Below are positions 4,267-38,352 of a DNA stretch of 64,000 bases, in pieces (within the stretch, counting starts at the first letter, position 1; every line of letters begins with the position of its first letter). A program made the translations under genes and the position numbers. The notes beneath the pieces were generated by a model. That model had not been told where the DNA came from, ran no database searches, and saw only the letters and a program-made list of their open reading frames with translations. Source of the stretch: Phycisphaerales bacterium (lineage in GTDB: Bacteria > Planctomycetota > Phycisphaerae > Phycisphaerales > UBA1924); assembly GCA_029260295.1 (NCBI GenBank), contig JAJDDN010000004.1, positions 10,246 to 74,245 of the forward strand. Reading direction: 5' to 3'.

Positions 4267-4294
4267 GATTGAGTTCCTCGGCTAGTTATACGCC

Positions 4295-4310: not shown

Positions 4311-4403
4311 TTCGATATATCCGAATTAAATGCCAATCTTTTCATTTTCCAATGGAAGAAAATGACTGGAGTGCGTATTCTTATTTACCGAAATGAGAAA
4401 ACA

Positions 4404-4799
4404 ATGAACCAACTCACCACCATCACCCACGCACTCTCAGACCCCACCCGCATCCGCCTATTGGCCGCGTGCCTGGACCAAGAACGCTGCGTTTGCCAGC
4501 TCGTCGAGCTCATCGACCTCTCCAACGCCTCGATCTCCAAACACCTCGCCACCCTCCGCAACGCCGGGCTCCTCGAGTCCCGCAAAGAAGGCCGGTGGGT
4601 GCATTACCAAACCCAACAATCCCCCACCACCATCATCGCCGACGCACTCGCCTTCGTCCAAACCCACGCGCTCAGCGACGACCAAATCCAATCCGATAAA
4701 TCAAAGCTCGCCGAGATCGACACGATCGACCCGTGCGACCTCGCCAAGATGCAACGCACCGGGTGCTGCATCCCAACCCAACAAGGAGTATCCCTATGA
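4404..4799 (+). CDS. arsR: ArsR/SmtB-family metalloregulator
   Basis: THALSDPTRIRLLAACLDQERCVCQLVELIDLSNASISKHLATLRNAGLLESRKEGRWVHY, including the CVC metal site. I used the internal ATG at 4404. Its stop overlaps the arsM ATG (ATGA). Confidence 0.85.
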   Translation: MNQLTTITHALSDPTRIRLLAACLDQERCVCQLVELIDLSNASISKHLATLRNAGLLESRKEGRWVHYQTQQSPTTIIADALAFVQTHALSDDQIQSDKSKLAEIDTIDPCDLAKMQRTGCCIPTQQGVSL

Positions 4800-5650: not shown

Positions 5651-5655
5651 TCTGT

Positions 5656-17122: not shown

Positions 17123-17214
17123 GGTGCCCTCCTTTGACCCGTAGGGCAAAGGAGGATTCGGTGGTGCGATGGATTCCAAGACCTCCTTTACCCTGCGGGC
17201 TAAAGGAGGGCACC
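17123..17214. other. twin-hairpin, four-segment inverted-repeat structure rich in SD/anti-SD-like sequence
   Basis: H1 is CCTCCTTTG(A)CCC-gta-GGGCAAAGGAGG (17128-17155). H2 is CCTCCTTTACCC-tgc-GGG(C)TAAAGGAGG (17182-17209). They are closed by GGTGC (17123-17127) pairing with GCACC (17210-17214). Confidence 0.5.
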
Positions 17215-18776: not shown

Positions 18777-20915
18777 TTAGACCTTTGCCCCCACCCGGAT
18801 CACCTCAACCCCGCTCGGGATCGCATTCCGAAACGCCTTCCCATACCCAGTCGTCACAATCCGAGGATCCAAAACAACAACCCGTCCAGAATCTGTACTC
18901 GACCGGATCAACCGCCCAAACCCCTGCTTAAACCGGAGCACCGCCCGAGGCAGCGAATCATCCCGGAACGGATCACCACCGCGTAGCTTAATCAACTCAT
19001 TCCGCGCCTCAACAATCGGCCTATCCGGCGGATCAAACGGCAACCTCGTAATAATCACATTCCGCAGCCGGTCCCCCCGCACATCAACCCCCTGCCAAAA
19101 ACTCGAAGCCCCAAACAACACCCCCCGGTCATGCTCCCGGAACTCATCCAAAATCTGCGTCCGAGGCCCATCCTTCCCCTGCACCCAAACCCGATACCCC
19201 ATCGCCTCCAGCGGCCGACGCAAATCATCCGCCGTCTGATACAACAACCGGAAACTCGTAAACAACACAAACGCCCCACCGTCAGTCGCCACAACATGAT
19301 CCTTCACCCGCGAAGAGATCGCCTCTTCAAATGATTCCCCACTCGCACTCACCGACCCCCGCCTCGGCGTAGGAACAGATGCATCCACAAACACCTCCAC
19401 CTGCGACGCATAATCAAACGGACTCCCCAACTGCAAAACGCTCGCCCCCTCCCCCCCAAGCCGCGACAGACAATGCATAAACGCAGTCTCCGCATGCTCG
19501 GTCGTCTCATCAGGCTCAACATCCCGCGTCGTCAAGGTCGCCGAGGTCAACACCACCGAAGCATCCCCACCAAACAAATGCTCCTTCAACAACGGAGCCA
19601 CTTCAGTAGGACTGCACGCAATCGTCACCCGAACCCCCCCACGCCCAGGATTCCCGCTCGTCTCAATCCAATACACACACTTCTCGCTCGTCTGCTCGAT
19701 CAGCGTCTCGGCCTGATCCGAAATCTCCTTGGCCCGAATAGCAAAAGCATTCAACTCAAACCGATCAACCTCGTTGGTGACTTCATCCTTGAGCCGCTTA
19801 AGCCGCAGACACAAATCATTCATCGCAGGCGAAAGCACATTCTCCACGATCCCAGGAGCCCGCACCCGCCCGTTCACAAGCTCCCCGCTCACCATCTTCC
19901 GATTCAAAGAATCAAAGAACGCATCACTACACCGCTGCGCCTCCCGCACCAGCAAAATCGCCTTGTCCACAGGCTCAATATCCCCCGTCACCAACGCCAG
20001 CTGCGCCAGATACCCCCGCTGCGACTGCTCCTGATACAACTGCCGAAGCAAAAACCCGACCCGGCCTTCAGTCAGCGACAGCCCAAAGTGATCCGCCGCC
20101 GCATCCTCAACCGCGTGCGCCTCATCAAGCACCACATGGTCATACTCAGGCAAAAACCCAGCCCCCCCCCCAACCTTCATCCGCAGCGCCATATCCGAAA
20201 AGAACAACGCGTGATTACAGATCAACAGATCCGCATCATCCATCTCCTTGCGGGCCGCCTGATAAAAACAATCCCCATGATGCGGACACTTCCGCCCCAT
20301 GCAGTTCGTCGAATCCGACTGCACCGAGTTCCAAACCCCGCCCCGCTCAATCGAAGGCAGCGTAGAAAGCGTCCCATCCTCCGTCTCATACGCCCACTCC
20401 TCGATCACATCCAGCGACCGACGCGAAGGCCCATCCGGAAACAACTTATTCCGCCGCTCGCTCGCCAATCGCAGCCGACGAATAGACATGTAGTTCCCCC
20501 GCCCCTTAACCAGCACCGCCTTGCAAGCAACCGCTTCTTGCTCCTCCCCCGCCCCTGCGGGGGAGGTGGCCGAGTCTTCGAGGTCGGAGGGGGTCTTCTC
20601 TTCATCTTCCATCCCAGCCAACGCATCAAGCAAAATCGGAATATCCTTCTTCACAAGCTGTTCCTGCAGCGCAATCGTATTGGTCGCCACCACCACCTTC
20701 TTCCCCTCACGCATCGCCCGAACAATCGCAGGCACCAAATACGCAAAGCTCTTCCCAACCCCCGTCCCCGCCTCAACAAACAAATGCGCCCCAGACTCCA
20801 TCGCCCGATCCACCGCACAAGCCATCTCAACCTGCTCCCCGCGCGGCTCATACCCCTCCAAACGCTCCGCGATCGGCCCACCATCCCCAAGCAACATCTC
20901 AACATCATGACTCAC
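18777..20915 (-). CDS. dinG: DinG/Rad3-family ATP-dependent helicase (Fe-S type)
   Basis: VEAGTGVGKSFAYLVP, cysteine cluster CMGRKCPHHGDCFY, VLDEAHAVED, SATL, FWQGVDV. Carries an in-frame copy of the palindromic element. Confidence 0.85.
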   Translation of the reverse strand: MSHDVEMLLGDGGPIAERLEGYEPRGEQVEMACAVDRAMESGAHLFVEAGTGVGKSFAYLVPAIVRAMREGKKVVVATNTIALQEQLVKKDIPILLDALAGMEDEEKTPSDLEDSATSPAGAGEEQEAVACKAVLVKGRGNYMSIRRLRLASERRNKLFPDGPSRRSLDVIEEWAYETEDGTLSTLPSIERGGVWNSVQSDSTNCMGRKCPHHGDCFYQAARKEMDDADLLICNHALFFSDMALRMKVGGGAGFLPEYDHVVLDEAHAVEDAAADHFGLSLTEGRVGFLLRQLYQEQSQRGYLAQLALVTGDIEPVDKAILLVREAQRCSDAFFDSLNRKMVSGELVNGRVRAPGIVENVLSPAMNDLCLRLKRLKDEVTNEVDRFELNAFAIRAKEISDQAETLIEQTSEKCVYWIETSGNPGRGGVRVTIACSPTEVAPLLKEHLFGGDASVVLTSATLTTRDVEPDETTEHAETAFMHCLSRLGGEGASVLQLGSPFDYASQVEVFVDASVPTPRRGSVSASGESFEEAISSRVKDHVVATDGGAFVLFTSFRLLYQTADDLRRPLEAMGYRVWVQGKDGPRTQILDEFREHDRGVLFGASSFWQGVDVRGDRLRNVIITRLPFDPPDRPIVEARNELIKLRGGDPFRDDSLPRAVLRFKQGFGRLIRSSTDSGRVVVLDPRIVTTGYGKAFRNAIPSGVEVIRVGAKV
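20541..20610 (-). repeat. palindromic G/C-rich element, copy 1 (in-frame inside dinG)
   Basis: Plus strand: CTCCTCCCCCGCCCCTGCGGGGGAGGTGGCCGAGTCTTCGAGGTCGGAGGGGGTCTTCTCTTCATCTTCC. 10-bp stem CCTCCCCCGC/GCGGGGGAGG. Translates as EDEEKTPSDLEDSATSPAGAGEE in DinG. Confidence 0.8.
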
Positions 20916-21838
20916 TTGTTCGCAATCCCCAAAGGCATCCGCTTGGGCTCCCCGTCCTTCCGAGGATACATCTTCGGCGTAGCCCGCTGCTTCTCAAGCA
21001 CCACCACCCGCCCAGTAGGCGTCTCCACAGTCCCCACATGATGCGTGTGCAACATATGCAACGCCTTCTTCGCATCATCAACTTCCTCCCCCGCCTTCTC
21101 GCCCTTAGTCAGCACAACCAATCCCCCAACCTTCACCAAAGGCACCGTCAACTCCGCGATCATCGCAACCTTCCCAACAGCCCGCGCCATCGCCCCATCA
21201 TACTTCTCGCGATGCCCCCCTTCATACCCCTGCAAAACCTTCCGCCCCTTATCCTGCCCCAAACCCTCAGCACGACCATTAATCACCGTCACATTGGTCA
21301 ACCCCAACCACGCGACACAGTTCTCAATAAAGTCCGTCTTCCGCTTGGTCGCATCGAGCAACACAAAATCAATCCCAGGCATCACAATCGCCAAAGGAAT
21401 CCCAGGCAGCCCCCCACCAGAACCCACATCAATCACCCGCTTCCGTTCCCTCATCTCCCCCGTGGCACAGGCGTCCCGCCTGTGTTCTTCTCCTCCCCCG
21501 CACCCCGCAGGGGAGGTGGCCGAGTTTGGGGGGGCGAGGTCGGAGGGGGTCTTCTCTTCATCTTCATTCCCCCCACCCATCTCCCCAAGCACAGGCACCA
21601 GCGTCAACGCATCAAAGATATGCCGATCCCACGCCTCGTCCGCATCCCGGATCGCCGTCAGGTTCGTCCGCGTGTTCACATCCATCAACGCGGCCAAATA
21701 CTTCCCAAGCTGCTCAACCTCAGCATCCTCAAGCCCAATCCCAAACTCAGCAACCTTCCCCGCCCACTCTGCCGGAGGCTTGATTGCCTCAAGCTCATGC
21801 GAAAACGCCACCGGGCTCCCGCGAGTATCGTCCTTCAC
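20912..21838 (-). CDS. rsmG: 16S rRNA (guanine527-N7)-methyltransferase RsmG (GidB)
   Basis: LTAIRD..E.W.RHI.DAL and SAM motif VIDVGSGGGLPGIPLAI. The ORF maximum (21991) overlaps rodA by 149 bp, so I placed the start at GTG 21838, just after the rodA stop. The start is uncertain. Contains an in-frame element copy. Confidence 0.8.
   Translation of the reverse strand: MKDDTRGSPVAFSHELEAIKPPAEWAGKVAEFGIGLEDAEVEQLGKYLAALMDVNTRTNLTAIRDADEAWDRHIFDALTLVPVLGEMGGGNEDEEKTPSDLAPPNSATSPAGCGGGEEHRRDACATGEMRERKRVIDVGSGGGLPGIPLAIVMPGIDFVLLDATKRKTDFIENCVAWLGLTNVTVINGRAEGLGQDKGRKVLQGYEGGHREKYDGAMARAVGKVAMIAELTVPLVKVGGLVVLTKGEKAGEEVDDAKKALHMLHTHHVGTVETPTGRVVVLEKQRATPKMYPRKDGEPKRMPLGIANK
21466..21568 (-). repeat. 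palindromic G/C-rich element, copy 2 (in-frame inside rsmG) with an extra perfect hairpin
   Basis: CACAGGC-gtccc-GCCTGTG (21466-21484), then TTCTCCTCCCCCGCACCCCGCAGGGGAGGTGGCCGAG...GAGGTCGGAGGGGGTCTTCTCTTCATCTTCA. Translates as NEDEEKTPSDLAPPNSATSPAGCGGGEEHRRDACATGE. Confidence 0.8.
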
Positions 21839-21842
21839 AAAC

Positions 21843-23162: not shown

Positions 23163-25570
23163 GGCGAACCCCCATCCGAAACTACATTCCCAGGCAGATA
23201 CCCCTCGCTCACCAGCGCATGCACCACCTGATTATTAATCGCCCCAGACACCCGCGACCCAGACCCACCATAATCCACCACCACCGCAATCGCATACTCA
23301 GGCATCCCGCCAACCCCAACAAGCGACACATACCAACTGTGATCCCCCTCCCGAACAACCCGCGCCTCCAAAGGCCCATCCCCATCAGGATCAATCACCA
23401 AAGGCGAAGAAGTCGCCGTCCCCGTCTTGCCCCACACATCAATCCCCTCTGCATTGAACACCGGGTCTTGAATCGTGTCATAAGTCACATGATTCCCCGT
23501 GCCGTTCTTCGCGTTATTCACCACCTCGTACAATCCGTCAAGCGTCATCGCCACCGCCCAACCCGGCAACCCGATATTGCTCACCTCAGGCATCCCGCTC
23601 CTCTGAATCAGCCGCGGCGTGATCTCGAAACCACCACGCGCAATCGTCGAGTACGCATCAACCGCATGCAACGGCGTCCAAGTCACCGGCCCCTGGCCAA
23701 TCCCCATCTGGATCGCATCCTCAGGCGAAATCGAAAGCGTCCCCCCCTTCCCATCAAACACCCCCGTAGAACCAGCCCATGACGAACCAATCCCCAAATC
23801 AATCGGCACCCCAATCCCAAACATCGAATACACCTCTTCGATCCCAGAAGCCCCAAGCCGTTGGCCAAGCGTAAAGAAAAACACATTGGACGACACCATA
23901 AGCGCATCAGTCCCGTCAGGGTGCCTCTCCAACTGATCAAAATGGGTCAGACCAAGATGCTGGTATTTTTTAAATATCCACGACCGAAGCATATTGGGCC
24001 TGTCAGGATACAAATGCCCCGTCGCCTCGATCCGCTCCCCCTGCTCATACATCCCAAGCTTACTCGCCCCAGTCAAAACCAACGCCTTGGCCACAGACCC
24101 AGGCTGATAAGGCTTGGCAATCGCACGATTCACATACGGAAACCGCTCATTCTTAAACCGCTCAACACTCGCCTCAGTCGTAAGCCCCAACCGCCCCCAG
24201 TCCCCATCCCGCGGAGCCACAGGCGTAGACACCATCGCCAAAATCTCCCCAGTCGCCACTTCCAGCACCACCACCGCCGCATCAAGCTCCGTCCCCAACG
24301 CCATATCCGTATTGTCATGCCAAGGCTGCACCCGCGTCATCCCCACCATCGGATCCAGCACCGCCCGCACCCGCGCCGTAAGCGACATATCAAGCGTCAG
24401 CCGAACATCCTTCCCGCTGCTTGGCTGTATCTCGCTCACCCCACGCGTCTGCAGATGCTCCGTCCGCACCCCGCGCAACCCCCGCAGCGAATGCTCCATC
24501 GCCGCCTCAATCCCAGTATGCCCAACCCGATCATGATCCGTGTACCGCCCCCGATCCACACTATCTTCGGTCATCGAAGCAACCCGCAAAGACTCATCCC
24601 CCGCCAGCGCAACCCGACGCCGATCCGCATCCTCCTTAAACACCCGGTCCCGCACCCGCCCAAGCACCAGCGAACCAAGATCCTCAACAACAACCCGCAC
24701 CGTCGAATCATCCCGCAAAGGCAGCGGGAAGCTCGACCGATCCAGAATCACCGTTTCGGATTCAAACGGATACACCCGCCGAGTATTATCCGTAATCTCC
24801 ATCCCCGGAAACAACGGAATCATCTCCTCAAGCGCACTACCCCCCCCCTCCACATAACTCATCGCAGGCACCTCCCGCGTCACCATCCGCATCAACTCAA
24901 ACCCAACCTCATCGCTCACCCCCTCAACAACCGCGTGAGTCACCGTCTGCTCTTTGATCTTCGACGAAGAGTTCTTGACAAACTTCGCCAGATCCTCATC
25001 GCTCACCACAAAACCAAGCCGCTCGCGATCCTCAACCTTGTTCCGCACCCGCGCCCCAACAATCGACCGGTGCTGCCGTTCGATCCCATCAACAATCGAA
25101 TCCCGCCGCCCCATCAGCTCATCGAGCCCAACCCTCGTATACGCCGCGATCGTCCGCAGCGACGCATCCACATGCTTCTGATAAATCCGTCGATAGTTCT
25201 CAATAATCGCGTCGCGTTCCTCGGTTGAATACAGATCCCACTGATCCTTATGCGCCTTGCGGGCATACCGCCTCGCCCGGATAGACGCCCAATCCCCACT
25301 CAGCACCGAATACCCAATCGCCACATCATAACTCGCCTGGTCATACGCCAAGACCCGCCCAGTCCGATCCAAAACCCGCCCCCGCGTCGTCGGCAGCCAA
25401 GTCCGCCGGATCAACCGAGACTCGGCAACCTCCCGCGATGCCGCCCCGTCAACAACCGTCATCCAAGACATCCGCCCAAGGAGCCCAACAAACCCCGCGC
25501 ACACCATCAGCATCAACAGCACCAGCCGCCGATGAAACATACTCGGAATCAATCTAGACAAAGCAACCAT
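23159..25570 (-). CDS. mrdA: penicillin-binding protein 2 (elongasome transpeptidase), with large insertions
   Basis: N-terminal TM anchor. Transpeptidase motifs GSVAKAL (SxxK), SSN and KTGTA. Adjacent to rodA. Confidence 0.9.
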   Translation of the reverse strand: MVALSRLIPSMFHRRLVLLMLMVCAGFVGLLGRMSWMTVVDGAASREVAESRLIRRTWLPTTRGRVLDRTGRVLAYDQASYDVAIGYSVLSGDWASIRARRYARKAHKDQWDLYSTEERDAIIENYRRIYQKHVDASLRTIAAYTRVGLDELMGRRDSIVDGIERQHRSIVGARVRNKVEDRERLGFVVSDEDLAKFVKNSSSKIKEQTVTHAVVEGVSDEVGFELMRMVTREVPAMSYVEGGGSALEEMIPLFPGMEITDNTRRVYPFESETVILDRSSFPLPLRDDSTVRVVVEDLGSLVLGRVRDRVFKEDADRRRVALAGDESLRVASMTEDSVDRGRYTDHDRVGHTGIEAAMEHSLRGLRGVRTEHLQTRGVSEIQPSSGKDVRLTLDMSLTARVRAVLDPMVGMTRVQPWHDNTDMALGTELDAAVVVLEVATGEILAMVSTPVAPRDGDWGRLGLTTEASVERFKNERFPYVNRAIAKPYQPGSVAKALVLTGASKLGMYEQGERIEATGHLYPDRPNMLRSWIFKKYQHLGLTHFDQLERHPDGTDALMVSSNVFFFTLGQRLGASGIEEVYSMFGIGVPIDLGIGSSWAGSTGVFDGKGGTLSISPEDAIQMGIGQGPVTWTPLHAVDAYSTIARGGFEITPRLIQRSGMPEVSNIGLPGWAVAMTLDGLYEVVNNAKNGTGNHVTYDTIQDPVFNAEGIDVWGKTGTATSSPLVIDPDGDGPLEARVVREGDHSWYVSLVGVGGMPEYAIAVVVDYGGSGSRVSGAINNQVVHALVSEGYLPGNVVSDGGSP

Positions 25571-25680: not shown

Positions 25681-25745
25681 CTTCTCCTCCCCCGCGCCCC
25701 GCGGGGGAGGTGGCCGCCCAGCGGTCGGAGGGGGTCTTCCTCCCC
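25681..25745 (-). repeat. palindromic G/C-rich element, copy 3 (intergenic, upstream of mrdA)
   Basis: CTTCTCCTCCCCCGCGCCCCGCGGGGGAGGTGGCCGCCCAGCGGTCGGAGGGGGTCTTCCTCCC, in the same orientation as copies 1 and 2. It sits between the mrdA start (25570) and the LVIVD gene start (25860). Confidence 0.75.
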
Positions 25746-25859: not shown

Positions 25860-27914
25860 ATGCCCCCAAACCTCACCCCCACCCCCATCCAAACCAAAGC
25901 CACCACCCTCCTCCTCCTCGCCCTCCTAACACTCCTAACCCCCCAATCCAAAGCCGACGGCGTCCTCTGCAACTCCAGAAATATACTTGCTTTGCACGAC
26001 ACGCCAGGAAATGCAAGAAATGTCACGCTCGTTGGCACCACAGCATATGTCGCCGATGCGAACTCGGGGTTCCAGATACTCGACATGACTGATCCGACCA
26101 CCCCAGTATTACTAGGGTCATACGACACACCCGGATTCGCAAGCCGTGTGACCATAGTGGGAACAACAGCTTATATTGCAGAAGGCGGGTCCGGGTTACA
26201 AATCCTCGATGTGTCCGACCCCACCGCAATCGTATTTCTCGGATCATTCGACACACCAGGATCAGTTCAGAGTGTTGCCGTTGTGGCCGAAACAGCATAC
26301 ATAGCTGATGGCGATTCCGGCTTGTTAATCCTTGATGTCAGCAATCCAGCAAGCCCGTCAGTGCTCGGGACATTAAGCGCATTCAACAGCAACTTCAGCG
26401 ACATCGTTGTCGTAGACACAATCGCTTACATCACGGACACATTCGAAGGCCTCCGGACTGTTGATATTAGCAACACCAATTCGCCATCGTTGCTCAACCT
26501 AAGAATCATTCAAGGTGCTTCAAAGGATGTGGAGGTCAAAAATTCCGTCGCGTACATCGCAACAACAAACAACGGATTGTTGATATTGGATGTTTCAGAC
26601 CCGTCTTCGCCACAGTTTTTAGCAGCACGGGATACAAACGGAATAGCAGTTTCCGTTACCGTACAAGACACAGTCGCATATGTGTCCGATGGTGATCTGG
26701 GCGTGCTTCTTTATGATGTAAGCAATCCAGCTTCACCTGTCCACATCGGTTCCTATGACACACCCAACAGTGCCCTAGCGGTCGCAACAGATGGAGTCAT
26801 TGCCTATGTCGCCAATGGCTTGGCAGGTATCCAAATTATAGATGTCAGCAATCCCTCTCAGGATTCAATCGTTGGAACATATCCCCTATCCGATGCAACT
26901 GAAATCGATATGGTTGGCAATGTGTCATTTGTCTTACGAACTTTCGCAGGCATGCGAATAATTGATGTCAACAATCCAGCAACACCAACCTTGCTCGGTT
27001 CATACGACAAGCCCGGTTTCAGAGTGTATACAGGAATCTCAGTTGTTGAAAACACTGCATACATCACCGATACAACATCAGGACTTCAGATTGTAGATGT
27101 TTCCGATCCCGAAAATCCTGTTTTCGTCAACTCCTTGAGCTTGCCCAGTAGCCCATCCGATGTGACCGTCGTCGGCTCAACCGCCTTTGTAGTGTCAGGG
27201 TCAACAGGATTGCATCTCGTTGATGTGAGTGATCATTCATCACCGTTCCTGATCAGTTCTATTGATACACCAGGCTTCGCAAGCCATGTTGCTTTAGCAG
27301 GATCAAACGCATTCATAGCAGATGACGACAACGGCTTAGTAATCATCAGCTTGAAAAACCAAGCGAACCCAGTCATCCTCGGCACATACAACACCCCCGG
27401 CGATGCCACAAGTGTCTTTGTAGTAGGCTCCATTGCCTATGTTGCCGATCGCCTTTCAGGCTTGCAATTAATCGATGTATCGAATCCTGCAACTCCAGAA
27501 CTACTCGGATCATACGACACTCCAAGCGAAGCAAGAAGTGTTGTAGTCTCAAATACAACCGCCTACATCGCAGATTTCACCGCAGGCCTGCACATAATCG
27601 ATGTTCAAAACCCACAATCTCCCGTTCATCTGGCATCCAAAGACACCCCCAACAGAGCCACTAGTCTGGTTCTAAACGATTCATTCGTATTCATTGCCGA
27701 TGATGACGCAGGCCTCCAAATCATCGACATCTCCGACTGCCCCCCATGCCCCGCAGACCTCAACAACGACAACACCCTCGACTTCTTCGACATCTCAACA
27801 TTCCTCACCGCCTTCTCAGCATCCGACCCCGTCGCAGACTTCTCCCAAGACGGCCAATACGACTTCTTCGACATCGCCGCATTCCTCACCGCCTTCTCCG
27901 CCGGCTGCCCCTAA
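25860..27914 (+). CDS. LVIVD-repeat beta-propeller protein with C-terminal GCP-terminated dockerin-like anchor
   Basis: Signal peptide MPPNLTPTPIQTKATTLLLLALLTLLTPQSKA (internal ATG 25860). About 14 repeats of the form AY(V/I)AD...GL.I(L/I)DVS(N/D)P..P..LGSYDTPG. The tail is CPADLNNDNTLDFFDISTFLTAFSASDPVADFSQDGQYDFFDIAAFLTAFSAGCP. Confidence 0.8.
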   Translation: MPPNLTPTPIQTKATTLLLLALLTLLTPQSKADGVLCNSRNILALHDTPGNARNVTLVGTTAYVADANSGFQILDMTDPTTPVLLGSYDTPGFASRVTIVGTTAYIAEGGSGLQILDVSDPTAIVFLGSFDTPGSVQSVAVVAETAYIADGDSGLLILDVSNPASPSVLGTLSAFNSNFSDIVVVDTIAYITDTFEGLRTVDISNTNSPSLLNLRIIQGASKDVEVKNSVAYIATTNNGLLILDVSDPSSPQFLAARDTNGIAVSVTVQDTVAYVSDGDLGVLLYDVSNPASPVHIGSYDTPNSALAVATDGVIAYVANGLAGIQIIDVSNPSQDSIVGTYPLSDATEIDMVGNVSFVLRTFAGMRIIDVNNPATPTLLGSYDKPGFRVYTGISVVENTAYITDTTSGLQIVDVSDPENPVFVNSLSLPSSPSDVTVVGSTAFVVSGSTGLHLVDVSDHSSPFLISSIDTPGFASHVALAGSNAFIADDDNGLVIISLKNQANPVILGTYNTPGDATSVFVVGSIAYVADRLSGLQLIDVSNPATPELLGSYDTPSEARSVVVSNTTAYIADFTAGLHIIDVQNPQSPVHLASKDTPNRATSLVLNDSFVFIADDDAGLQIIDISDCPPCPADLNNDNTLDFFDISTFLTAFSASDPVADFSQDGQYDFFDIAAFLTAFSAGCP

Positions 27915-28057: not shown

Positions 28058-29440
28058 ATGACCACCAAAACCCCCACCGATACAACAGTTCTCAACTCCT
28101 ACAACCCCTCCACAGGCCAGCTCGTCGGCTCTGTCCCGGTCACCCCGGTCTCGCAAATCGAAGACATCATCGCCAAAGCAAACGCCGCACTCCCTGCATG
28201 GCAAGCCATGACCCCCCAACAACGAGCCGACATCCTCAAACCAGCAGGCAAAGTTCTCGCCGACCGCGCCGAAGAACTCGGCAAACTCCTCTCCCTCGAA
28301 CAAGGCAAACCACTCGCAGAAGGCATCGGCGAAGTCAGCGGCTGCGCTTCCCGCATGGACTGGGAAAACGACGAGGTCGCCAGCGCCGTCCAACCAGAAA
28401 TCCTCAAATCCGACGGCATCGAATCCACAATCCACTACGACGGCTACGGCGTATGCGCCGCCATCACCCCGTGGAACTTCCCGCTCCTCATGCCGCACTG
28501 GACAATCATCCCCGCGCTCATCGCCGGAAACACCGTCATCTCCAAACCCTCAGAGCAAACCCCGCTCATCGCTGACGAGTATGTCAAAATCCTCAACCAG
28601 TTCCTCCCCGATGGCGTCCTCCAAATAGTCCACGGCGAGGACGACCAAGGCAAAGCACTCGTCGCCGGAGACATCCACCTCATCGCATTCACCGGCTCCA
28701 AAAACGCCGGCCAGCACATCATGGCCGCCGCCGCCAATGGACTCAAACGCCTCATCCTAGAACTCGGCTCCAAAGACCCAATGATCGTACTCCAAGGCGC
28801 CGACCTCGACAAAGCCGCAAAGTTCGGTGTCAACAACGCCATCAGAAACTGCGGCCAGGTCTGCGTCTCCACCGAACGCTTCTATGTCCAAGACTCCATC
28901 AAGGCCGAGTTCATCAGCAAACTCGCCGAGGAGTTCAAAAACTTCCCGGTCGGCGACTGCAACGACGAAGCCGCCACAGTCGGCCCGATGGTCATGCGCG
29001 AACAAAAAGACCATGTCGTCGCCCAGATCCAAGACGCCATCACCAAGGGCGCCAAGGTTATCCTCGGAAACGAACCCATGGACGGCAACTTCATCTCCCC
29101 CACCATCCTCGACAACTGTAACCACAGCATGGACATCATGACCGTCGAGACCTTCGGCCCGGTCATTTGCATCGCGACCGTCAAAGACGCCGACGAAGCC
29201 GTCGCCCTCGCCAATGATACAGAATACGGCCTCGGAGCCGTCGTCTATGGGGAAGAAACCATCGCCCGGAAGGCCGCCAACCAGCTCACCGCCGGGATGA
29301 TCGGGGTCAACAAAGGCATCGGCGGCGCGACCGGCACCCCTTGGGTCGGAGCACGCCATTCTGGATTCTCCTACCACAAAGGCCCGATGGGCCACCGCCA
29401 GTTCTGCCAGGTTCGGGTGGTGAGCATCAACGCCGAGTGA
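28058..29440 (+). CDS. NAD(P)-dependent aldehyde dehydrogenase family protein
   Basis: ITPWNFPL, FTGSKNAG, ELGSKDP, catalytic-Cys region NCGQVCVSTERF, EEFGPV-type ETFGPV. The internal ATG at 28058 removes a low-complexity N-terminal extension of the ORF. Confidence 0.9.
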   Translation: MTTKTPTDTTVLNSYNPSTGQLVGSVPVTPVSQIEDIIAKANAALPAWQAMTPQQRADILKPAGKVLADRAEELGKLLSLEQGKPLAEGIGEVSGCASRMDWENDEVASAVQPEILKSDGIESTIHYDGYGVCAAITPWNFPLLMPHWTIIPALIAGNTVISKPSEQTPLIADEYVKILNQFLPDGVLQIVHGEDDQGKALVAGDIHLIAFTGSKNAGQHIMAAAANGLKRLILELGSKDPMIVLQGADLDKAAKFGVNNAIRNCGQVCVSTERFYVQDSIKAEFISKLAEEFKNFPVGDCNDEAATVGPMVMREQKDHVVAQIQDAITKGAKVILGNEPMDGNFISPTILDNCNHSMDIMTVETFGPVICIATVKDADEAVALANDTEYGLGAVVYGEETIARKAANQLTAGMIGVNKGIGGATGTPWVGARHSGFSYHKGPMGHRQFCQVRVVSINAE

Positions 29441-29455
29441 TCCGATCCGGTATGC

Positions 29456-31693
29456 TTGGCTATGCCCAGCGTGATGAGTGATCTCACAACAACCATGAGT
29501 CAGCGTGCCAAGTCTGCTATTGAGCGGATGGGTAGTGAATTGTTGTCGTCACGCACGGGAACGAGTGATCTTGATATTGACCGGCTGGGATTTGAGTTGC
29601 GGGTGGTGCTTCAGCGGATTTTGATACTTGATCGTGTGGGAATGCTGGGTGCCGATCTGACTTGGGAGAAGTTGTTGGATATGGATCTGGAACGGCAATT
29701 GTTCCACGTGGAACAATTGCCTAAGGACCGGATTTGGTCGGGGGATTGGGTGGGTCTTGTGCGGCGGGAGTTTGGCTTGTCCGGCGGGAAATGGTTTGAT
29801 GAAATCGTCGAATTGGTTCGGGGGGATTCGGTGGAGATGGGGGCGGTGGATGAGTCATTGATGGGGTGGGTGGCTCGGATTGAGGATGGTCAGTTTGTGT
29901 TGGTTGCCGAGGATGATTCTGATCGGAAGGTTGGGGGGGTGTTTTATACGCCGGCTTCTGTGGTTGGGTATGTGCTGGACCGGGCACTCTCGCCTGCGAT
30001 TGATGGGTGCGGGAAAGATGTGAATCGGTTGCTTGGTTTGCGGGTGTGTGATCCGGCGTGTGGGTGCGGGTATTTTTTGATTGAATCTGCTCGGCGGATT
30101 TCGGCTGCGATTGAAGTGGCCGGGGGTGGTGATCGGTATTCAGATGTGATCCGGGGGTGTGTGTTTGGGGGCGATGTGAATCGGATGACGGTGGAGGTGT
30201 GCCGATGGTTGTTGTGGCTTGAGGTTTCGGATAGGTCGATTTCGGTTGATGAGCTTCGGCGGAATGTGGTGTGCGGCGATGGGTTGGTTGACGAGGATAC
30301 ATTTGGAAAAAATGGGAATGGGGGGTTTGATGTGGTGGTTGGGAATCCTCCGTTTTTGAATCAGCTGGGGTCTGGGACGGCGCGGTCGGCGGAGCGGGTC
30401 AAGCGGCTTCGCAAGCGTGGGCTTGTTGGAGGGGCGGCGTATACGGATGAGGCTTCTGCGTTCTTTGTGCTGGGGTTGGGGATGGTGGGTGGGATCGAGG
30501 AGCAGAAAGAAAGACCCCCTCCGTCTGCGAAGACGCAGACACCTCCCCCGGAGGCCCGGGGGAGGCGGAAGATTGGGCGGGTGTGTATGGTGCAGCCGCA
30601 GTCGGTGGTGGCTACTCGGGGCGGGGCCTTTGCGCGGGCGAGGGTTGCTGAGATGGGGAGTTTGGAATCGTTGTGGGTTTCCAATGAGCATGTGTTTGGG
30701 GATGCGAGTGTGTATACATGTGCGCCTTGTGTGGTGGTTGGGGGAGAGGGAGAAACTCGGTCGGTTCAAAGACCACTCCCTGACGGTCGCGGCTCGTTGA
30801 AGAGTGGAGCGGGAGTTGTGCGGCGGTTTTCTGGTGGTGGGTTTGTTGAGCATGAGCCGTTGGTTATTTCGAGCGACGAGATTGGGGGGCTTGCGACTTG
30901 GTCTTCTATTGCGGCGGTGACGATGGGGGTTCCTGAGATTGGGATTGAGTCGGCGGGGGTTGTTGGTGATATGGCGACGGCGACTGCGGATTTCCGGGAT
31001 GAGTACTACGGGCTTGTGGGGAAGTTGGTTGAGGATTCAGACTGTCGTGATCTGGAGGGATCGCCTGCGGTGCTGACTACGGGGCTTGTCGATTTGGGGG
31101 TGAACCACTGGGGGCGTAAGGCGACGCGGATTCATAAGGAGCGATGGGAATCGCCTCGGGTTGGGGCGGCTGGGATTGTTGGGGATGCTCGGCTTTCAAA
31201 GTGGGTGGCGGCTCGGCGTGTGGAGAAGGTTGTGGTGGCGACGCAGACGAAGGTAGTGGAGGCGTTTGTGGATGCGACGGGGGAGTTTGTTGTTTTGACG
31301 CCGATGATTTCGGTGATGTTTCGGAATGAAGACATGCAGGAGCCGAAGACGGCACCTACATGGCACCCAGAGAAGAGTGTTTGGATGATTGGGGCGGCGA
31401 TCGGGTCGCCGGTGTGTAGTGCCTTTGCGATGCGGTTCTTTGGGGGGGCGGCGATGCATGCCGATGCGCTCAAGATGAGTGCTCGGCAGGTGATGGAGTT
31501 GCCGCTGCCGGCTGATGGTGCGGGATGGTCAGCAGGGGCCGAGGCCTTTGAACGGGTGCACAGTGCTTGTGGCGATGAATATGACCGTGCGATCACAGAG
31601 TTTGGGGAAGTTATGTGCGGGGCGTATGGGGTTGAGGGGGATGATTTGGAGGGGTTGATGGGGTGGTGGCTTGGGCGGCTGGGGATCGGGTGA
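29456..31693 (+). CDS. Eco57I/type IIG-like N6-adenine DNA methyltransferase (no nuclease domain recognised), solitary
   Basis: GGVFYTPASVVGYVLD, SAM motif I VCDPACGCGYFL, catalytic motif IV VVGNPPF. The long C-terminal region is plausibly a target-recognition domain. Carries an in-frame element copy. Confidence 0.75.
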   Translation: MAMPSVMSDLTTTMSQRAKSAIERMGSELLSSRTGTSDLDIDRLGFELRVVLQRILILDRVGMLGADLTWEKLLDMDLERQLFHVEQLPKDRIWSGDWVGLVRREFGLSGGKWFDEIVELVRGDSVEMGAVDESLMGWVARIEDGQFVLVAEDDSDRKVGGVFYTPASVVGYVLDRALSPAIDGCGKDVNRLLGLRVCDPACGCGYFLIESARRISAAIEVAGGGDRYSDVIRGCVFGGDVNRMTVEVCRWLLWLEVSDRSISVDELRRNVVCGDGLVDEDTFGKNGNGGFDVVVGNPPFLNQLGSGTARSAERVKRLRKRGLVGGAAYTDEASAFFVLGLGMVGGIEEQKERPPPSAKTQTPPPEARGRRKIGRVCMVQPQSVVATRGGAFARARVAEMGSLESLWVSNEHVFGDASVYTCAPCVVVGGEGETRSVQRPLPDGRGSLKSGAGVVRRFSGGGFVEHEPLVISSDEIGGLATWSSIAAVTMGVPEIGIESAGVVGDMATATADFRDEYYGLVGKLVEDSDCRDLEGSPAVLTTGLVDLGVNHWGRKATRIHKERWESPRVGAAGIVGDARLSKWVAARRVEKVVVATQTKVVEAFVDATGEFVVLTPMISVMFRNEDMQEPKTAPTWHPEKSVWMIGAAIGSPVCSAFAMRFFGGAAMHADALKMSARQVMELPLPADGAGWSAGAEAFERVHSACGDEYDRAITEFGEVMCGAYGVEGDDLEGLMGWWLGRLGIG
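30497..30571 (+). repeat. palindromic G/C-rich element, copy 4 (in-frame inside the methyltransferase, opposite genomic orientation)
   Basis: GAGGAGCAGAAAGAAAGACCCCCTCCGTCTGCGAAGACGCAGACACCTCCCCCGGAGGCCCGGGGGAGGCGGAAG. Hairpins GTCTGCG/CGCAGAC and CCTCCCCCGG/CCGGGGGAGG. Translates as EEQKERPPPSAKTQTPPPEARGRRK. Confidence 0.75.
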
Positions 31694-31756: not shown

Positions 31757-31813
31757 CCTGTGCGTGAGGCCCGGGCGTGGCTTTAGTCGCGGCTCGGGCC
31801 TCTCTTTTTTTGG
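31757..31813 (+). terminator. hairpin plus T-run (intrinsic terminator after the methyltransferase); copy 1 of a repeated ~55-bp element
   Basis: CCTGTGCGTGAGGCCCGGGCGTGGCTTTAGTCGCGGCTCGGGCCTCTCTTTTTTTGG. Outer stem GAGGCCCG/CGGGCCTC. Seven Ts. Confidence 0.65.
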
Positions 31814-36414: not shown

Positions 36415-36468
36415 CCTGTGCGTGAGGCCCGGTCGCGATTTTAGTCGCGGCTCGGGCCTCTCTTTTGG
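36415..36468 (+). repeat. copy 2 of the ~55-bp hairpin element
   Basis: CCTGTGCGTGAGGCCCGGTCGCGATTTTAGTCGCGGCTCGGGCCTCTCTTTTGG is near-identical to 31757-31813 and in the same orientation. It lies between two minus-strand genes. Confidence 0.6.
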
Positions 36469-36513: not shown

Positions 36514-38352
36514 TTATGGGCAGCCCGCCATGAATGCTGTCAGGAATGTGCTGATGTCAAAGAAGTCGAAGCTGCCGTCTCCTGTGAGATCTGCGATTGG
36601 GTCCCCACTGCTGAATGCGGTGAGGAATGCTGCGATATCAAAGAAGTCGAGCGTGCCGTCTGCGGTCATGTCTGCGGGGCAGGTGTTGACGCAAACGCCG
36701 GTCATTGAGCAGAAGGTGGTGAGTTCTGCTACAGGCGAGACTGCGGTGCCGCCAGGAGCTGCTGGGTCAACGACGAGCCACTGCATGTAGAATGTTTGGC
36801 CGTCGAGTGCTTGGTCGCTTGGGATTGGCCAGAACATTGTGCCGAAGCCGTTGCCGTTTCCTGCGCCTTCGAGTGCGATTGGGCCGAGGATTTCGTCTTG
36901 TGGGACGAGACCTGATACTGGCGGTGAGGTTGAGACGACGACGAATGCTTGTGCACCGCCGAGGGCGTTGTTGATACCGACCTTGAAGCCGTCGTTGCCA
37001 AGGTTTGGTGGGCAGACTGCGATCATGTCTGGGACGATCCCGCCTGAGCCTGCAGTGCCGGCTCCGATGACGGCTGGGTTTGCGGCTGGGAGTTCGGCGT
37101 ACATGGTTGGGCGATCGAAGGGGAATGTTTCGGCTGCGACGCGTGGGTCGGTGAGGCCGTTTTGGAGGAAGTTGATGACATTTGCCTGGGCTTGTGGGCC
37201 AAAGGTGATGGGGAGCGCCATGAATGGATCAAGGTTTTGTGGGAACGGGTTCTGGCCGTTTCTGTGTGCGTAGAAATCGAAGACTTGCATGAGTGAGGCG
37301 TGTCCGCCGTTGTGCATGTAGCGGTCACGGAGACCGGTGTTGCGGAGTGATGGCGTTTTGAAGCGGCCGCGGTCGATTGGGTCGTTTGTGACATTGAATC
37401 GGCCGAGGTCTTCGATGAGTGGACGCACGCCGATGTTTCTGAATGAGTTGTCTGTGAACTGTGCGCCGATGTGGCATGCGTTGCAGAGTGATGCTCTGAA
37501 TGCGTTGAGGCCGTTGATTTGCTGTGGCGACATTGCCGCTGCGTCCCCGGCGATGAACAGGTCGTATGGCGTTTGGTCTGGGACCAGGGTGCGTTCGTAG
37601 GTTGCGATGGCCATGCCTACGCGTCCGGCGGTGAGCTGGGAATCGCCGAAGACTTCTTGGAACATTTGTGGATAGGTTTTGCCTTGGGCGATGACGGCGG
37701 CCATATCTGCCGGGAGATTTGAGGCGAGGGCCAAGGGTTTGGCACCGGTGAGTTTGACTAGGATCTGCGCCCAGTCGCGGCTCTGGTGTGCCATCTCTGC
37801 GCCGCTGGCGGGTGGGCCTACGGCTTGGCTTTCAAGGGCACCGCCTGATGCGATGAGGACTTGTCCTGTGATGGGATCGGTGAACTGTGAAGTGGCGCGG
37901 CCGTCCCAGAAGAGTTCTGGTGCGTACATGCCCATGATTGATGGAGGGGCCTGGCGGCCGGTGACCTGGACATCGAGGTCGTAGAGGGGCGAGGGGACAT
38001 ACTTATCGTCGGCGTCTTGGAAGACGACTCCTGGGGAGCCGAAGATGTCGTCTTGGTTTCCGAAGATGTTATCGGGTCCTGGGTTGATACCCATGCGTTC
38101 ATCGGTGCCTCCGACAGCTGGCTGGTGGCATGAGCCACAGGACATGGTGTTGTCGCTGGAGAGTTGTTCGTCCCAGAAGAGGATTTTACCGAGGTCTGCT
38201 TTTTCTTGGGTGAACTGGTTTTCTGGGGGGAATGGCACTGGTGGGAGCGGCTGGGCTAGGGATTGCGAACTGATTGAAGCCAGTACAATTGCGGGCGCTA
38301 TCAACCTGAGTTGACAGACGATTGGTGAGACACGACAGATGTTGGTGCGCAT
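36514..38352 (-). CDS. di-haem cytochrome c peroxidase (CcpA/MauG family) fused to a C-terminal GCP-terminated dockerin-like anchor
   Basis: Haem sites CGSCH and CNACH, FKTPSLRN, conserved Trp/Met regions, signal peptide. The tail is CPADMTADGTLDFFDIAAFLTAFSSGDPIADLTGDGSFDFFDISTFLTAFMAGCP. Confidence 0.85.
   Translation of the reverse strand: MRTNICRVSPIVCQLRLIAPAIVLASISSQSLAQPLPPVPFPPENQFTQEKADLGKILFWDEQLSSDNTMSCGSCHQPAVGGTDERMGINPGPDNIFGNQDDIFGSPGVVFQDADDKYVPSPLYDLDVQVTGRQAPPSIMGMYAPELFWDGRATSQFTDPITGQVLIASGGALESQAVGPPASGAEMAHQSRDWAQILVKLTGAKPLALASNLPADMAAVIAQGKTYPQMFQEVFGDSQLTAGRVGMAIATYERTLVPDQTPYDLFIAGDAAAMSPQQINGLNAFRASLCNACHIGAQFTDNSFRNIGVRPLIEDLGRFNVTNDPIDRGRFKTPSLRNTGLRDRYMHNGGHASLMQVFDFYAHRNGQNPFPQNLDPFMALPITFGPQAQANVINFLQNGLTDPRVAAETFPFDRPTMYAELPAANPAVIGAGTAGSGGIVPDMIAVCPPNLGNDGFKVGINNALGGAQAFVVVSTSPPVSGLVPQDEILGPIALEGAGNGNGFGTMFWPIPSDQALDGQTFYMQWLVVDPAAPGGTAVSPVAELTTFCSMTGVCVNTCPADMTADGTLDFFDIAAFLTAFSSGDPIADLTGDGSFDFFDISTFLTAFMAGCP

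What the first reader, a model, noticed from the sequence alone, without database searches (positions are those of the whole stretch)
30497..30571. Element copy in the methyltransferase: flipped orientation, different frame, inside a catalytic-core loop
Copy 4 is the reverse complement of copies 1-3 on the plus strand, yet it is again sense to its host gene. It is read in a different frame, giving EEQKERPPPSAKTQTPPPEARGRRK. It interrupts the GG/R.....P segment downstream of the NPPF motif (...GLGMVGG[insert]GRVCMVQPQS). Copies 1-3 lie left of the strand-composition switch at 29.45 kb and copy 4 lies right of it. Orientation therefore correlates with both gene strand and inferred replication direction, and the two cannot be separated in this window.
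Basis: partly seen in the sequence, partly recalled or inferred. Interest (0 to 1): 0.65.

Follow-up and report, generated by a model that had tools for sequence, protein, structure and literature searches.

The report
Replication-oriented triplex-type DNA repeat inside methyltransferase
The 75-base insert in the methyltransferase is a real, in-frame copy of a small structured DNA repeat found in many bacterial phyla; its direction follows the direction of DNA replication and not the gene, and complete versions of the repeat enclose a small DUF559 nuclease gene, a lead on how such long-unexplained repeats spread.

Summary
The window has four copies of one element (5'-CCCCCTCCG / variable mini-hairpin / CACCTCCCCC / loop / GGGGGAGG-3'). 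Three are on the minus strand left of the GC-skew switch at 29.4 kb. One is on the plus strand, 30515-30565, in frame inside a gamma-class N6-adenine methyltransferase. Homologues show it is an 81-nt insertion between the motif V helix and the motif VI strand, and AlphaFold predicts it disordered. The gene stays under purifying selection (dN/dS 0.2-0.3).

Orientation follows GC skew (114 against 18) and not gene strand (about 31 sense against 28 antisense). Pfam confirms antisense in-frame insertions in MetH and a GH57 enzyme.

The element is a mirror-repeat "intrastrand triplex motif" built like E. coli BoxC/PIT/TMECO. Its boxes differ, and a hairpin with a GNA-type triloop serves as spacer. 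It occurs in Planctomycetota, Alphaproteobacteria, Acidimicrobiia and Chloroflexota.

One lead appears to be new. Inverted pairs are either "empty" (15-84 nt spacer) or enclose a DUF559 Vsr-like nuclease gene. DUF559 genes elsewhere, including E. coli ycjD, also sit beside triplex-motif repeats.

Neither the way the element moves nor triplex formation in cells has been shown.

The parts
30488..30568 (+). Whole inserted block of copy 4 (81 nt, 27 codons): purine-rich leader GGTGGGATCGAGGAGCAGAAAGAAAGA, the core, and CGG. It sits between codons GTG and AAG of the methyltransferase.
   Evidence: Codon comparison with the empty site in L240 (GTG|AAA GAT GGG GGG CGT) and the filled site in L242; protein alignment A1.
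30515..30523 (+). Box A, CCCCCTCC(G). It is the mirror image of box B. It is the candidate Hoogsteen strand; its complement GGAGGGGG is the candidate reverse-Hoogsteen strand.
   Evidence: Mirror relation: about 301 of 314 CCTCCCCC hairpins have it upstream, and longer stems go with longer box A.
30524..30539 (+). Variable mini-hairpin TCTGCG-AAGA-CGCAGA, the spacer between the mirror boxes.
   Evidence: Folds. Across copies there are 232 distinct spacers in 290 copies, and they are still hairpins (MFE -7.5 against -2.8 kcal/mol in shuffles).
30542..30565 (+). Box B (CCTCCCCC) / loop / box C (GGGGGAGG): a 10-bp G/C hairpin.
   Evidence: ssDNA fold -23 kcal/mol, z = -5.5.
29456..31693 (+). Host gene: a solitary gamma-class N6-adenine DNA methyltransferase, the first gene to the right of the skew switch. 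It keeps the same position next to an aldehyde dehydrogenase gene in related genomes.
   Evidence: dN/dS is 0.21-0.29.
20543..20593 (-). Copy 1, in frame in a DinG-like helicase (ORF 18777-20915, minus strand). Its hairpin variant equals the left end of the DUF559 units L192 and L219.
   Evidence: The same DinG site is occupied in L218 with a different hairpin.
21492..21549 (-). Copy 2, in frame in RsmG/GidB (ORF 20912-21991, minus strand), just before the SAM-binding motif.
   Evidence: About 43 residues are extra compared with the solved structure 3g88.
25686..25734 (-). Copy 3, intergenic, between the divergent PBP2 gene (minus strand, start at 25570) and the LVIVD-repeat gene (plus strand).
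29400..29460 (.). GC-skew switch (cumulative minimum at 29408), the inferred boundary between replication arms. All four copies have their C-box strand on the G-rich strand of their arm.
   Evidence: The same switch lies at the same gene boundary in L240 and L242.

Best explanation
Copy 4 is a tolerated, in-frame insertion of a short, non-coding, structure-forming DNA repeat.

Anatomy of the element. It has three 8-nt homopyrimidine/homopurine boxes. B and C form a G/C hairpin. A is the mirror of B. A variable mini-hairpin joins A to B. On the complementary strand this reads pyrimidine box / purine box / mini-hairpin / mirrored purine box. That is the layout of a purine-motif intrastrand triplex like E. 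coli BoxC/PIT/TMECO.

How it behaves. It acts at the DNA level. Its orientation is set by the direction of replication: the strand with two C-boxes lies on the G-rich leading strand, which is the template for lagging-strand synthesis. Orientation is not set by the gene. The element can land in any reading frame because the boxes contain no stop codons.

Effect on the methyltransferase. It adds about 26 disordered residues in a turn between the motif V helix and the motif VI strand, and the enzyme stays under purifying selection.

Origin of solo copies (inferred). Solo copies such as this one are most likely non-autonomous relatives of ~0.5-kb units in which two inverted copies enclose a DUF559 (Vsr-like PD-(D/E)XK) nuclease gene. 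That nuclease is the best candidate for the enzyme that spreads or maintains the repeats.

Shown: the anatomy, the insertion, the replication polarity, the independence from gene strand and frame, and the DUF559 association. Inferred: triplex formation, the cause of the polarity, and the nuclease's role.
For: Existence and insertion:
- Four copies against 0 expected.
- Empty and filled sites compared.
- Insert has pLDDT < 50 between helix 332-343 and strand 374-378.
- dN/dS is 0.21-0.29.

DNA level, not protein or RNA level:
- All six frames and both orientations occur in Pfam-confirmed genes.
- No Rfam family matches.
- The core is 50/51 nt identical between the window and L242, while flanking coding DNA is 70-72% identical (dS 0.71).

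Polarity:
- 114 against 18, p about 3e-18.
- Controls without the AGA flank give 16 against 4, and loci from the unbiased genome scan give 6 against 0.

Architecture:
- The mirror box is present in about 301 of 314 hairpins and lengthens together with the stem.
- Spacers vary but are still hairpins. TNC triloops closed by C-G dominate; these read C-GNA-G on the other strand.
- Known analogue: Holder et al. 2015, PMC4666352.

DUF559:
- All 11 DUF559 ORFs in 1.75 Mb of fetched loci are flanked by the element.
- Minus/plus pairs fall into two classes: 31 with 15-84 nt spacers and 7 with 344-576 nt spacers. All 7 of the latter hold DUF559.
- The commonest solo hairpin variants equal the two ends of the DUF559 unit.
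- In 7 DUF559 loci chosen by protein similarity alone, including E. coli ycjD, there are 18 triplex-motif hits within 200 nt of the gene (2.7 kb in total) against 1 in the other 25.4 kb.

High copy number: depth over the core is 20-150 times the flanking depth in four metagenome runs.
Against: - No target-site duplication or defined insertion junction was seen, and no mobility event was observed.
- No empty-site contig exists in the source metagenome.
- GC skew is only a proxy for replication direction. Gene calls in the loci were made with a crude ORF scorer; of 6 'antisense' calls checked, 2 were upstream of the true start.
- The loci come from many organisms, not from one closed genome.
- Triplex formation is not shown for this sequence. 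For TMECO it was seen only in isolated single strands, not in duplex DNA or in vivo.
- The window contains no DUF559 gene.
- The presence pattern at the methyltransferase site does not fit simple descent. The element is in the window and in the more distant L242 but not in the closest relative L240, whose site looks ancestral.
- E. coli TMECO shows no clear replichore bias. I count 8 against 5, in the opposite sense, from Table 1.
Confidence: 0.6

Rival explanations
1. REP/RAYT- or IS200/IS605-like single-strand transposition. The element would be a hairpin repeat moved by an HUH Y1 transposase that inserts into the lagging-strand template, and this would create the replication polarity.
For: Orientation bias with replication is the hallmark of single-strand DNA transposition (established knowledge of IS608/ISDra2). 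The polarity is strong. The elements are hairpins, form inverted doublets like REPINs, and hairpin subfamilies proliferate.
Against: Every gene found between inverted copies is DUF559 and none is a Y1 transposase. REPs are extragenic and species-specific, whereas these boxes are conserved across phyla. I did not search the loci systematically for Y1_Tnp genes.
Confidence: 0.15
2. The polarity comes purely from selection, with no dedicated enzyme. Copies whose stable purine-motif strand (C box, G box, GNA hairpin, G box) would lie on the single-stranded lagging-strand template stall replication and are purged. DUF559 genes would merely accumulate near repeats.
For: PIT/BoxC single strands block DNA polymerase in vitro (cited in PMC4666352). 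The purine-motif strand is on the rarely single-stranded leading-strand template in 114 of 132 copies. GNA triloops are known as very stable DNA mini-hairpins (my knowledge; loop counts).
Against: It does not explain how copies multiply, why hairpin subfamilies match the ends of the DUF559 unit, or the two spacer classes, empty and DUF559-filled. This selection could act together with the main explanation and need not replace it.
Confidence: 0.12
3. A chromosome-architecture signal read by a translocase or recombination enzyme (like KOPS or Chi), kept in one orientation per replication arm because the cell uses it.
For: Strong polarity and a density of about 1 per 16 kb in the window. All four window copies lie within 9 kb of the skew switch. 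TMECO clusters in the origin-proximal halves of the replichores in E. coli K-12.
Against: The B/C hairpin is palindromic, so only box A and the flanks carry direction. Inverted doublets are common. Copy number differs greatly between close relatives: L240 has none, L242 has two. Elements sit inside genes at a cost, and the DUF559 association is not expected for such a signal.
Confidence: 0.06
4. An RNA- or protein-level module: a structured mRNA element (the boxes mimic Shine-Dalgarno and anti-Shine-Dalgarno sequences) or a selected proline-rich linker peptide.
For: In the window all intragenic copies are sense. The boxes contain CCUCC and GGAGG. The RNA fold of copy 4 is stable (-41 kcal/mol, z = -3.6).
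Against: Sense and antisense insertions are about equally common and all frames are used. The RNA folds of copies 1-3 are not better than shuffles. No Rfam match. The peptide is predicted disordered. The nucleotide sequence is far better conserved than neighbouring codons.
Confidence: 0.05

Closest known systems
BoxC / PIT / TMECO G/C-rich intrastrand triplex motif repeats of E. coli and other Proteobacteria (Bachellier 1990s; Hoyne et al. 2000; Holder et al. 2015, PMC4666352)
   Same: Three homopyrimidine/homopurine blocks on one strand, in the order pyrimidine / loop / purine / spacer / mirrored purine (class II; the complement is class IV). G/C-rich, with 8-9 nt stems. Tens to hundreds of copies. 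Frequent inverted doublets. No promoter or terminator role known. In E. coli one copy sits 168 nt from the single DUF559 gene ycjD.
   Different: The box sequences differ (CCTCCCCC/GGGGGAGG/GGAGGGGG against CCCTCNCCC/GGGNGAGGG). The second spacer is a 12-30 nt variable hairpin and not 3 nt, so the published ITxF search (loops of 1-6 nt) would miss it. TMECO is always intergenic with no reported strand bias, whereas here many copies are inside genes and orientation is strongly tied to replication. The family spans several phyla.
Rickettsia palindromic elements (RPEs; Ogata et al. 2000, 2002, as reviewed in PMC10969869)
   Same: Short palindromic repeats inserted in frame into unrelated housekeeping genes, at sites compatible with protein fold and function (here).
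   Different: RPEs are about 100-150 bp and encode a conserved peptide in a set frame. This element has a 50-nt core (80-115 nt block), is read in all six frames, and shows no peptide conservation. It is in a different phylum, and sequence relatedness was not tested.
REP/REPIN elements with their RAYT transposase
   Same: Short hairpin repeats that occur singly and as inverted doublets, with a small enzyme gene bracketed by inverted copies.
   Different: The bracketed gene is a DUF559 Vsr-like nuclease and not a Y1 HUH transposase. The repeats are not extragenic. A mirror-repeat third box is present.
IS200/IS605 family single-strand transposons
   Same: Orientation coupled to the direction of replication (established for IS608/ISDra2; here).
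   Different: No TnpA/TnpB gene and no subterminal asymmetric hairpins with guide sequences were recognised.

Membership tests
G/C-rich intrastrand triplex motif repeats (BoxC/PIT/TMECO class) | One strand carries a pyrimidine block, its complementary purine block, and a further block that mirrors the purine block (class II; class IV on the complement). | tested here: met
   All 4 window copies and 329 copies in the loci. The mirror box is upstream of about 301 of 314 CCTCCCCC hairpins, against 6 downstream. CCTCCCCCC stems go with CCCCCCTCC.
G/C-rich intrastrand triplex motif repeats (BoxC/PIT/TMECO class) | TMECO consensus CCCTCNCCC N3-6 GGGNGAGGG N3 GGGNGAGGG, with both spacers short (1-6 nt). 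| tested here: not met
   The boxes are CCCCCTCC/CCTCCCCC/GGGGGAGG, and the spacer between the mirror boxes is a 12-30 nt hairpin (compared). True TMECO-like repeats also occur in the same loci.
G/C-rich intrastrand triplex motif repeats (BoxC/PIT/TMECO class) | The isolated strand folds into a triplex (CD, NMR, UV melting). | not testable with these tools
   Only Watson-Crick folding can be computed. This gives two adjacent hairpins and leaves the third box free.
G/C-rich intrastrand triplex motif repeats (BoxC/PIT/TMECO class) | Strictly intergenic location, as reported for E. coli. | tested here: not met
   In-frame copies in DinG, RsmG and the methyltransferase; in MetH and GH57; in WecB.
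REP/REPIN-RAYT | A Y1 (HUH) transposase gene flanked by inverted repeat copies. | tested here: not met
   All 7 minus/plus pairs with 344-576 nt spacers enclose DUF559 (PF04480) ORFs. No systematic Y1_Tnp search of all loci was made.
REP/REPIN-RAYT | Short imperfect palindromes occurring singly and as inverted doublets. | tested here: met
   31 minus/plus doublets with 15-84 nt spacers.
Rickettsia palindromic elements | In-frame insertion into conserved genes that remain functional. | tested here: met
   Alignment A1; dN/dS 0.21-0.29; disordered loop. Enzyme activity itself was not tested.
Rickettsia palindromic elements | About 100-150 bp, encoding a conserved peptide read in a fixed frame. 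| tested here: not met
   50-nt core; all three phases in both orientations; two different peptides within this window alone.
MITE (non-autonomous derivative of an element with terminal inverted repeats) | Ends shared with a longer gene-carrying element, plus target-site duplications. | tested here: inconclusive
   The ends are shared with DUF559 units, and the commonest solo variants equal the unit ends. No target-site duplication was recognised.
IS200/IS605-type single-strand DNA transposons | Strand-specific insertion coupled to replication, and a TnpA Y1 transposase. | tested here: inconclusive
   The polarity is met. No TnpA was seen next to copies, but there was no exhaustive search.
Gamma-class N6-adenine DNA methyltransferase (host gene) | SAM-binding motif I followed by catalytic motif IV, NPP(F/Y). 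| tested here: met
   Pfam N6_Mtase 7.7e-10 and Eco57I 2.3e-8. DPACGCGYFL and GNPPFLNQ are invariant in 16 sequences.

The most novel reading that the evidence does not exclude
DUF559 (YcjD-like, Vsr-fold) nucleases may be the cognate enzymes of G/C-rich intrastrand triplex-motif repeats throughout bacteria. That would cover E. coli BoxC/PIT/TMECO as well as this multi-phylum family with a hairpin spacer. The nuclease gene sits between two inverted repeat copies. 'Empty' doublets are either its homing sites or deletion derivatives, and solo copies are scattered in a replication-oriented way, even into essential genes. This partnership would parallel RAYT and REP but use a different enzyme fold and a triplex-type or mirror-repeat DNA structure.
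Probability: 0.35. Interest if true: 0.85.

Novelty: new variant of a known kind. Interest (0 to 1): 0.68.

Why it matters
BoxC/PIT/TMECO repeats have been known since the 1990s. They form triplexes in vitro, yet no function, partner protein or means of spread has been found, and the 2015 survey states this. Four results here matter for that problem.

1. A sister family spans several phyla. Published triplex searches would miss it because a hairpin replaces the short loop.
2. This family is strongly oriented with replication. That points to events on single-stranded DNA at the fork and gives a phenotype that can be tested directly.
3. It invades coding sequence in any frame, so these genomes carry many proteins with extra disordered loops. 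That matters for annotation and for protein evolution.
4. A specific, previously uncharacterised nuclease family (DUF559, including E. coli YcjD) is physically linked to such repeats in distant bacteria. This can be tested in a standard laboratory strain.

For the methyltransferase itself the conclusion is ordinary: the insert is probably harmless.

Tried and rejected
- Rfam at gathering threshold on the window, and at E <= 1 on six loci, gave nothing at the element, only tRNAs and chance miRNA-like hairpin hits.
- A literature search by the raw box sequences returned only noise. Searches for DUF559 (25 papers) and ycjD (17 papers) found no link to repeats.
- My first triplex detector (perfect 7-nt stems) missed obvious motifs. 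I replaced it with an 8-nt detector that tolerates mismatches.
- My composition-based ORF scorer is crude. Pfam checks showed that some 'intragenic' calls lie upstream of the true start.
- I looked for a mosaic (recombinant) structure in the methyltransferase to explain why the element is in the window and L242 but not in L240. There is none: the window is closer to L240 all along the gene.
- No RNA-seq run holds this locus, so transcription and processing could not be examined.
- Laying metagenome contigs on the site found no empty-site variant in the source sample. Contigs simply break inside the repeat.
- P0123 and P0111, each found on many contigs, turned out to be the same locus in many samples and not several insertion sites.
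- The idea that identical hairpins in Sphingomonas and planctomycete loci prove transfer between phyla was dropped. With 5-bp stems, that many coincidences are expected (my arithmetic).
- A chance or low-complexity origin is rejected.
Full report
**1. Observation**

A gapped pattern built from the conserved boxes (CCCCCTCCG N6-30 CCTCCCC N4-14 GGGGAGG) matches four times in the 64-kb window, with 0 matches in 100 shuffles. The copies are at 20543-20593(-), 21492-21549(-), 25686-25734(-) and 30515-30565(+). A mismatch-tolerant search adds none. Copy 4 is the reverse complement of copy 1 (pair I3).

Copies 1 and 2 lie in frame in a DinG-like helicase and in RsmG. Copy 4 lies in frame in ORF 29456-31693(+), which Pfam assigns to N6_Mtase/Eco57I. 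Copy 3 is intergenic, upstream of PBP2. Copies 1-2 are read as EEKTPSD..ATSPAG..GEE and copy 4 as ERPPPSAKTQTPPPEARGRR, so the frame differs.

The GC-skew switch is real and sharp. The cumulative minimum is at 29408, and skew goes from -0.12 to +0.45 within 500 nt. It lies at the same aldehyde dehydrogenase / methyltransferase boundary in two related contigs.

**2. It is an insertion, and a tolerated one**

In an alignment of 16 homologues, 13 of the 15 others lack the segment, including the closest (P0002). One more distant homologue (P0003) carries it at the same place.

At the DNA level the empty site reads GTG|AAA GAT GGG GGG CGT. The window has 81 extra bases (30488-30568) between GTG and AAG.

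AlphaFold2 (mean pLDDT 73.7) places residues 347-370 at pLDDT < 50. They lie between helix 332-343 (motif V) and strand 374-378 (motif VI), about 50 residues after NPPF. From general knowledge of class I methyltransferase folds, that turn lies at the edge of the sheet away from the active site. I did not measure this on the model.

The gene is under purifying selection in the lineages that carry the insert (dN/dS 0.21 and 0.29).

The same gene carries two more lineage-specific blocks. One (31327-31371) is a different palindromic repeat present in at least 10 related loci. The other (about 30745-30815) shows a depth spike in metagenome runs and is replaced by other sequence in related strains.

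**3. Orientation: replication, not gene**

Two collection scans returned 239 loci with 329 copies.

For the planctomycete-type copies I computed GC skew in the +/-3 kb around each copy, leaving out the element itself. The element's C-box strand is on the G-rich strand in 114 copies and on the C-rich strand in 18 (p about 3e-18). At |skew| >= 0.25 the counts are 59 and 4. Counted per locus they are 83 and 3. Most exceptions are the partner copies of inverted doublets.

The scan pattern required an AGA flank, which could bias the sample. Copies without that flank still give 16 against 4, and planctomycete loci from the unbiased genome scan give 6 against 0.

A crude ORF scorer classed 31 copies as sense-intragenic and 28 as antisense-intragenic, with all three phases in both orientations. 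Pfam checks confirm antisense in-frame insertions in the MetH linker and inside a GH57 domain. They also confirm sense insertions in DinG, WecB and the methyltransferase C-terminus. Some calls turned out to lie upstream of the real start, so the counts are approximate. The conclusion does not depend on their exact values.

The agreement with gene strand in this window is therefore a coincidence of three genes that happen to lie on the leading strand.

**4. What the element is**

The boxes are conserved across Alphaproteobacteria (Sphingomonas, Caulobacter, Brevundimonas and others), Planctomycetota, Acidimicrobiia, Chloroflexota and more.

- *Boxes.* Box B (CCTCCCCC) pairs with box C (GGGGGAGG). 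Box A (CCCCCTCC) is the mirror of B, not its complement. The mirror box is upstream of about 301 of 314 such hairpins and downstream of 6. When the stem is one pair longer, box A is one C longer.
- *Spacer.* The spacer between A and B has 232 distinct sequences in 290 copies, yet it is a hairpin (mean -7.5 against -2.8 kcal/mol in shuffles). Its loops are mostly TNC closed by C-G. On the complementary strand this is C-GNA-G, a type I know as an unusually stable DNA mini-hairpin (the stability statement is from my own knowledge).
- *Fold.* As single-stranded DNA, the complementary strand folds into two adjacent hairpins (-23 kcal/mol, z = -5.5) and leaves GGAGGGGG free.
- *Known analogue.* This is the layout of a class II purine-motif intrastrand triplex (class IV on the other strand). 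E. coli BoxC/PIT/TMECO has that layout, and for it triplex formation was shown in vitro but not in duplex DNA or in vivo (PMC4666352).
- *Rfam.* There is no match.

**5. Evidence for turnover**

- Depth over the core is 20-150 times the flanking depth in four metagenome runs, and the source assembly's contigs break inside the element.
- Hairpin variants form subfamilies found at unrelated loci.
- At the DinG site, a relative with 86-92% identical flanks carries the element with a completely different hairpin and loop.
- At the methyltransferase site the opposite holds. The core is 50/51 identical between the window and L242, although the flanks are 70-72% identical and dS is 0.71. The closest relative, L240, has an ancestral-looking empty site.

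Simple vertical descent does not explain these patterns. Block replacement (conversion or re-insertion) seems likely, but it is not shown.

**6. The DUF559 link**

Between inverted copies in L152 and L192 lies a ~134-aa ORF that Pfam assigns to DUF559 (E = 3e-25 and 3e-26), a Vsr-like PD-(D/E)XK fold related to E. coli YcjD and to PDB 3HRL.

- A profile search of all ORFs in 1.75 Mb of fetched loci finds 11 DUF559 ORFs, 7 planctomycete and 4 alphaproteobacterial. Every one is flanked by the element.
- Neighbouring minus/plus pairs, with box A facing inward, fall into two classes. 31 have spacers of 15-84 nt and 7 have spacers of 344-576 nt. All 7 of the latter contain DUF559.
- The two commonest solo hairpin variants are the right and left ends of the L192 unit. 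Window copy 1 is of the left-end type.
- I then took DUF559 homologues chosen only by protein similarity: a cyanobacterium, a Chloroflexi and an Armatimonadota genome, three metagenome contigs, and E. coli ycjD. I scanned them with a generic triplex-motif detector. It gave 18 hits within 200 nt of the gene (2.7 kb in total) and 1 hit in the remaining 25.4 kb.
- In E. coli K-12, TMECO no. 9 of Holder's Table 1 lies 168 nt beyond ycjD. A degenerate half-motif overlaps the ycjD stop codon. By my arithmetic such proximity has a chance probability of about 0.3%.
- Holder et al. reported no association with mobile elements. None of the 25 held papers that mention DUF559, nor the 17 that mention ycjD, links it to repeats.

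**7. Mechanism**

Shown:
- The element is a DNA repeat with two hairpins and a mirror box.
- It is polarised with replication.
- It is indifferent to gene strand and reading frame.
- It is tolerated in protein loops.
- It is physically associated with DUF559 genes.

Inferred:
- The relevant form is single-stranded DNA at the replication fork.
- The polarity arises in one of two ways. Insertion may be strand-specific, or selection may remove copies whose stable purine-motif strand lies on the lagging-strand template.
- DUF559 nicks or cleaves repeat DNA. It thereby drives either homing of the nuclease gene into empty doublets or mobilisation of solo copies.

I cannot choose between these routes with the present data, and I list them as rivals where they differ.

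**8. Verdict**

The finding is real. Its orientation puzzle is resolved in favour of replication. For the methyltransferase the insert is an ordinary, harmless loop. The element is a new variant of the triplex-motif repeat class. The DUF559 association is the most novel reading that can be tested.

Noticed in passing
window 29400-29460; L240 about 9947; L242 about 9475: The GC-skew switch falls in a 15-nt gap between two plus-strand genes (aldehyde dehydrogenase stop at 29440, methyltransferase start at 29456). It is conserved at that boundary in three genomes. There is no room for a classical intergenic origin, so the solitary methyltransferase is the first gene of the right replication arm.
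   Followed up: partly
window 31327-31371: A second, unrelated palindromic repeat (CATGCAGGAGCCG-AAGA-CGGCACCTACATG) is inserted in frame in the same methyltransferase. It recurs in at least 10 related metagenome loci, often near the triplex-type element. Homologues carry PDCAEDGESGHP at this site.
   Followed up: partly
window about 30745-30815: A third lineage-specific block in the methyltransferase (ETRSVQRPLPDGRGSLKSGAG). Contig depth spikes 5-90 fold over it in metagenome runs, and related strains have other sequence in its place, so it is probably another repeat family.
   Followed up: partly
window 31757-31808 and 36415-36466; L240 12168-12220; L241 5753-5805: A 52-nt G/C hairpin repeat (GAGGCCCGG...CGGGCCTC, 92% identical copies) lies downstream of the methyltransferase and of another gene. 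It is conserved at the same spot in related contigs and may be a terminator-like repeat.
   Followed up: no
L008 (LigA ORF 3173-6157, minus strand), L033, L176: Classical TMECO-like repeats, translated as ..WGEGRGEG.., also lie inside open reading frames in these planctomycete loci, including within the DNA ligase adenylation region.
   Followed up: no
L243 (E. coli NC_000913 1351200-1351470): Between ycjD and TMECO no. 9 there is a duplicated fragment of the ycjD 3' end (GAATATTCTCCAGCACCGTCTCC at L243 2335-2360 and 2440-2465). A half triplex motif overlaps the ycjD stop codon. Together these look like a scar of rearrangement at the repeat.
   Followed up: no
window 18777-23200 and elsewhere: Strand composition is so skewed (GC skew up to +/-0.5) that long spurious ORFs run antisense to real genes, for example 19473-21041(+), 522 aa, opposite DinG. 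Simple gene callers would be misled.
   Followed up: no
window 17123-17214: An inverted repeat with 33-nt arms (88% complementary) containing CCCTCCTTT / AAAGGAGGG blocks. It may be another homopurine/homopyrimidine hairpin repeat.
   Followed up: no
window 27753-27910, 36518-36681, 45552-45709: Repeated ~160-nt segments encode the C-terminal DFFDxxxF...GCP modules of LVIVD and FG-GAP repeat surface proteins. To my knowledge these are dockerin-like tails typical of Phycisphaerae.
   Followed up: no
L244 1443-1917; L260 3001-3414; L261 3001-3600: DUF559 genes sit inside operons or next to restriction-modification genes. In L244 one lies between subunits of a formate/NADH dehydrogenase-like operon. 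In L260 one follows HsdR-HsdS. In L261 one precedes an N6_N4 methyltransferase-Mrr gene. This is as expected of a small selfish insert.
   Followed up: no
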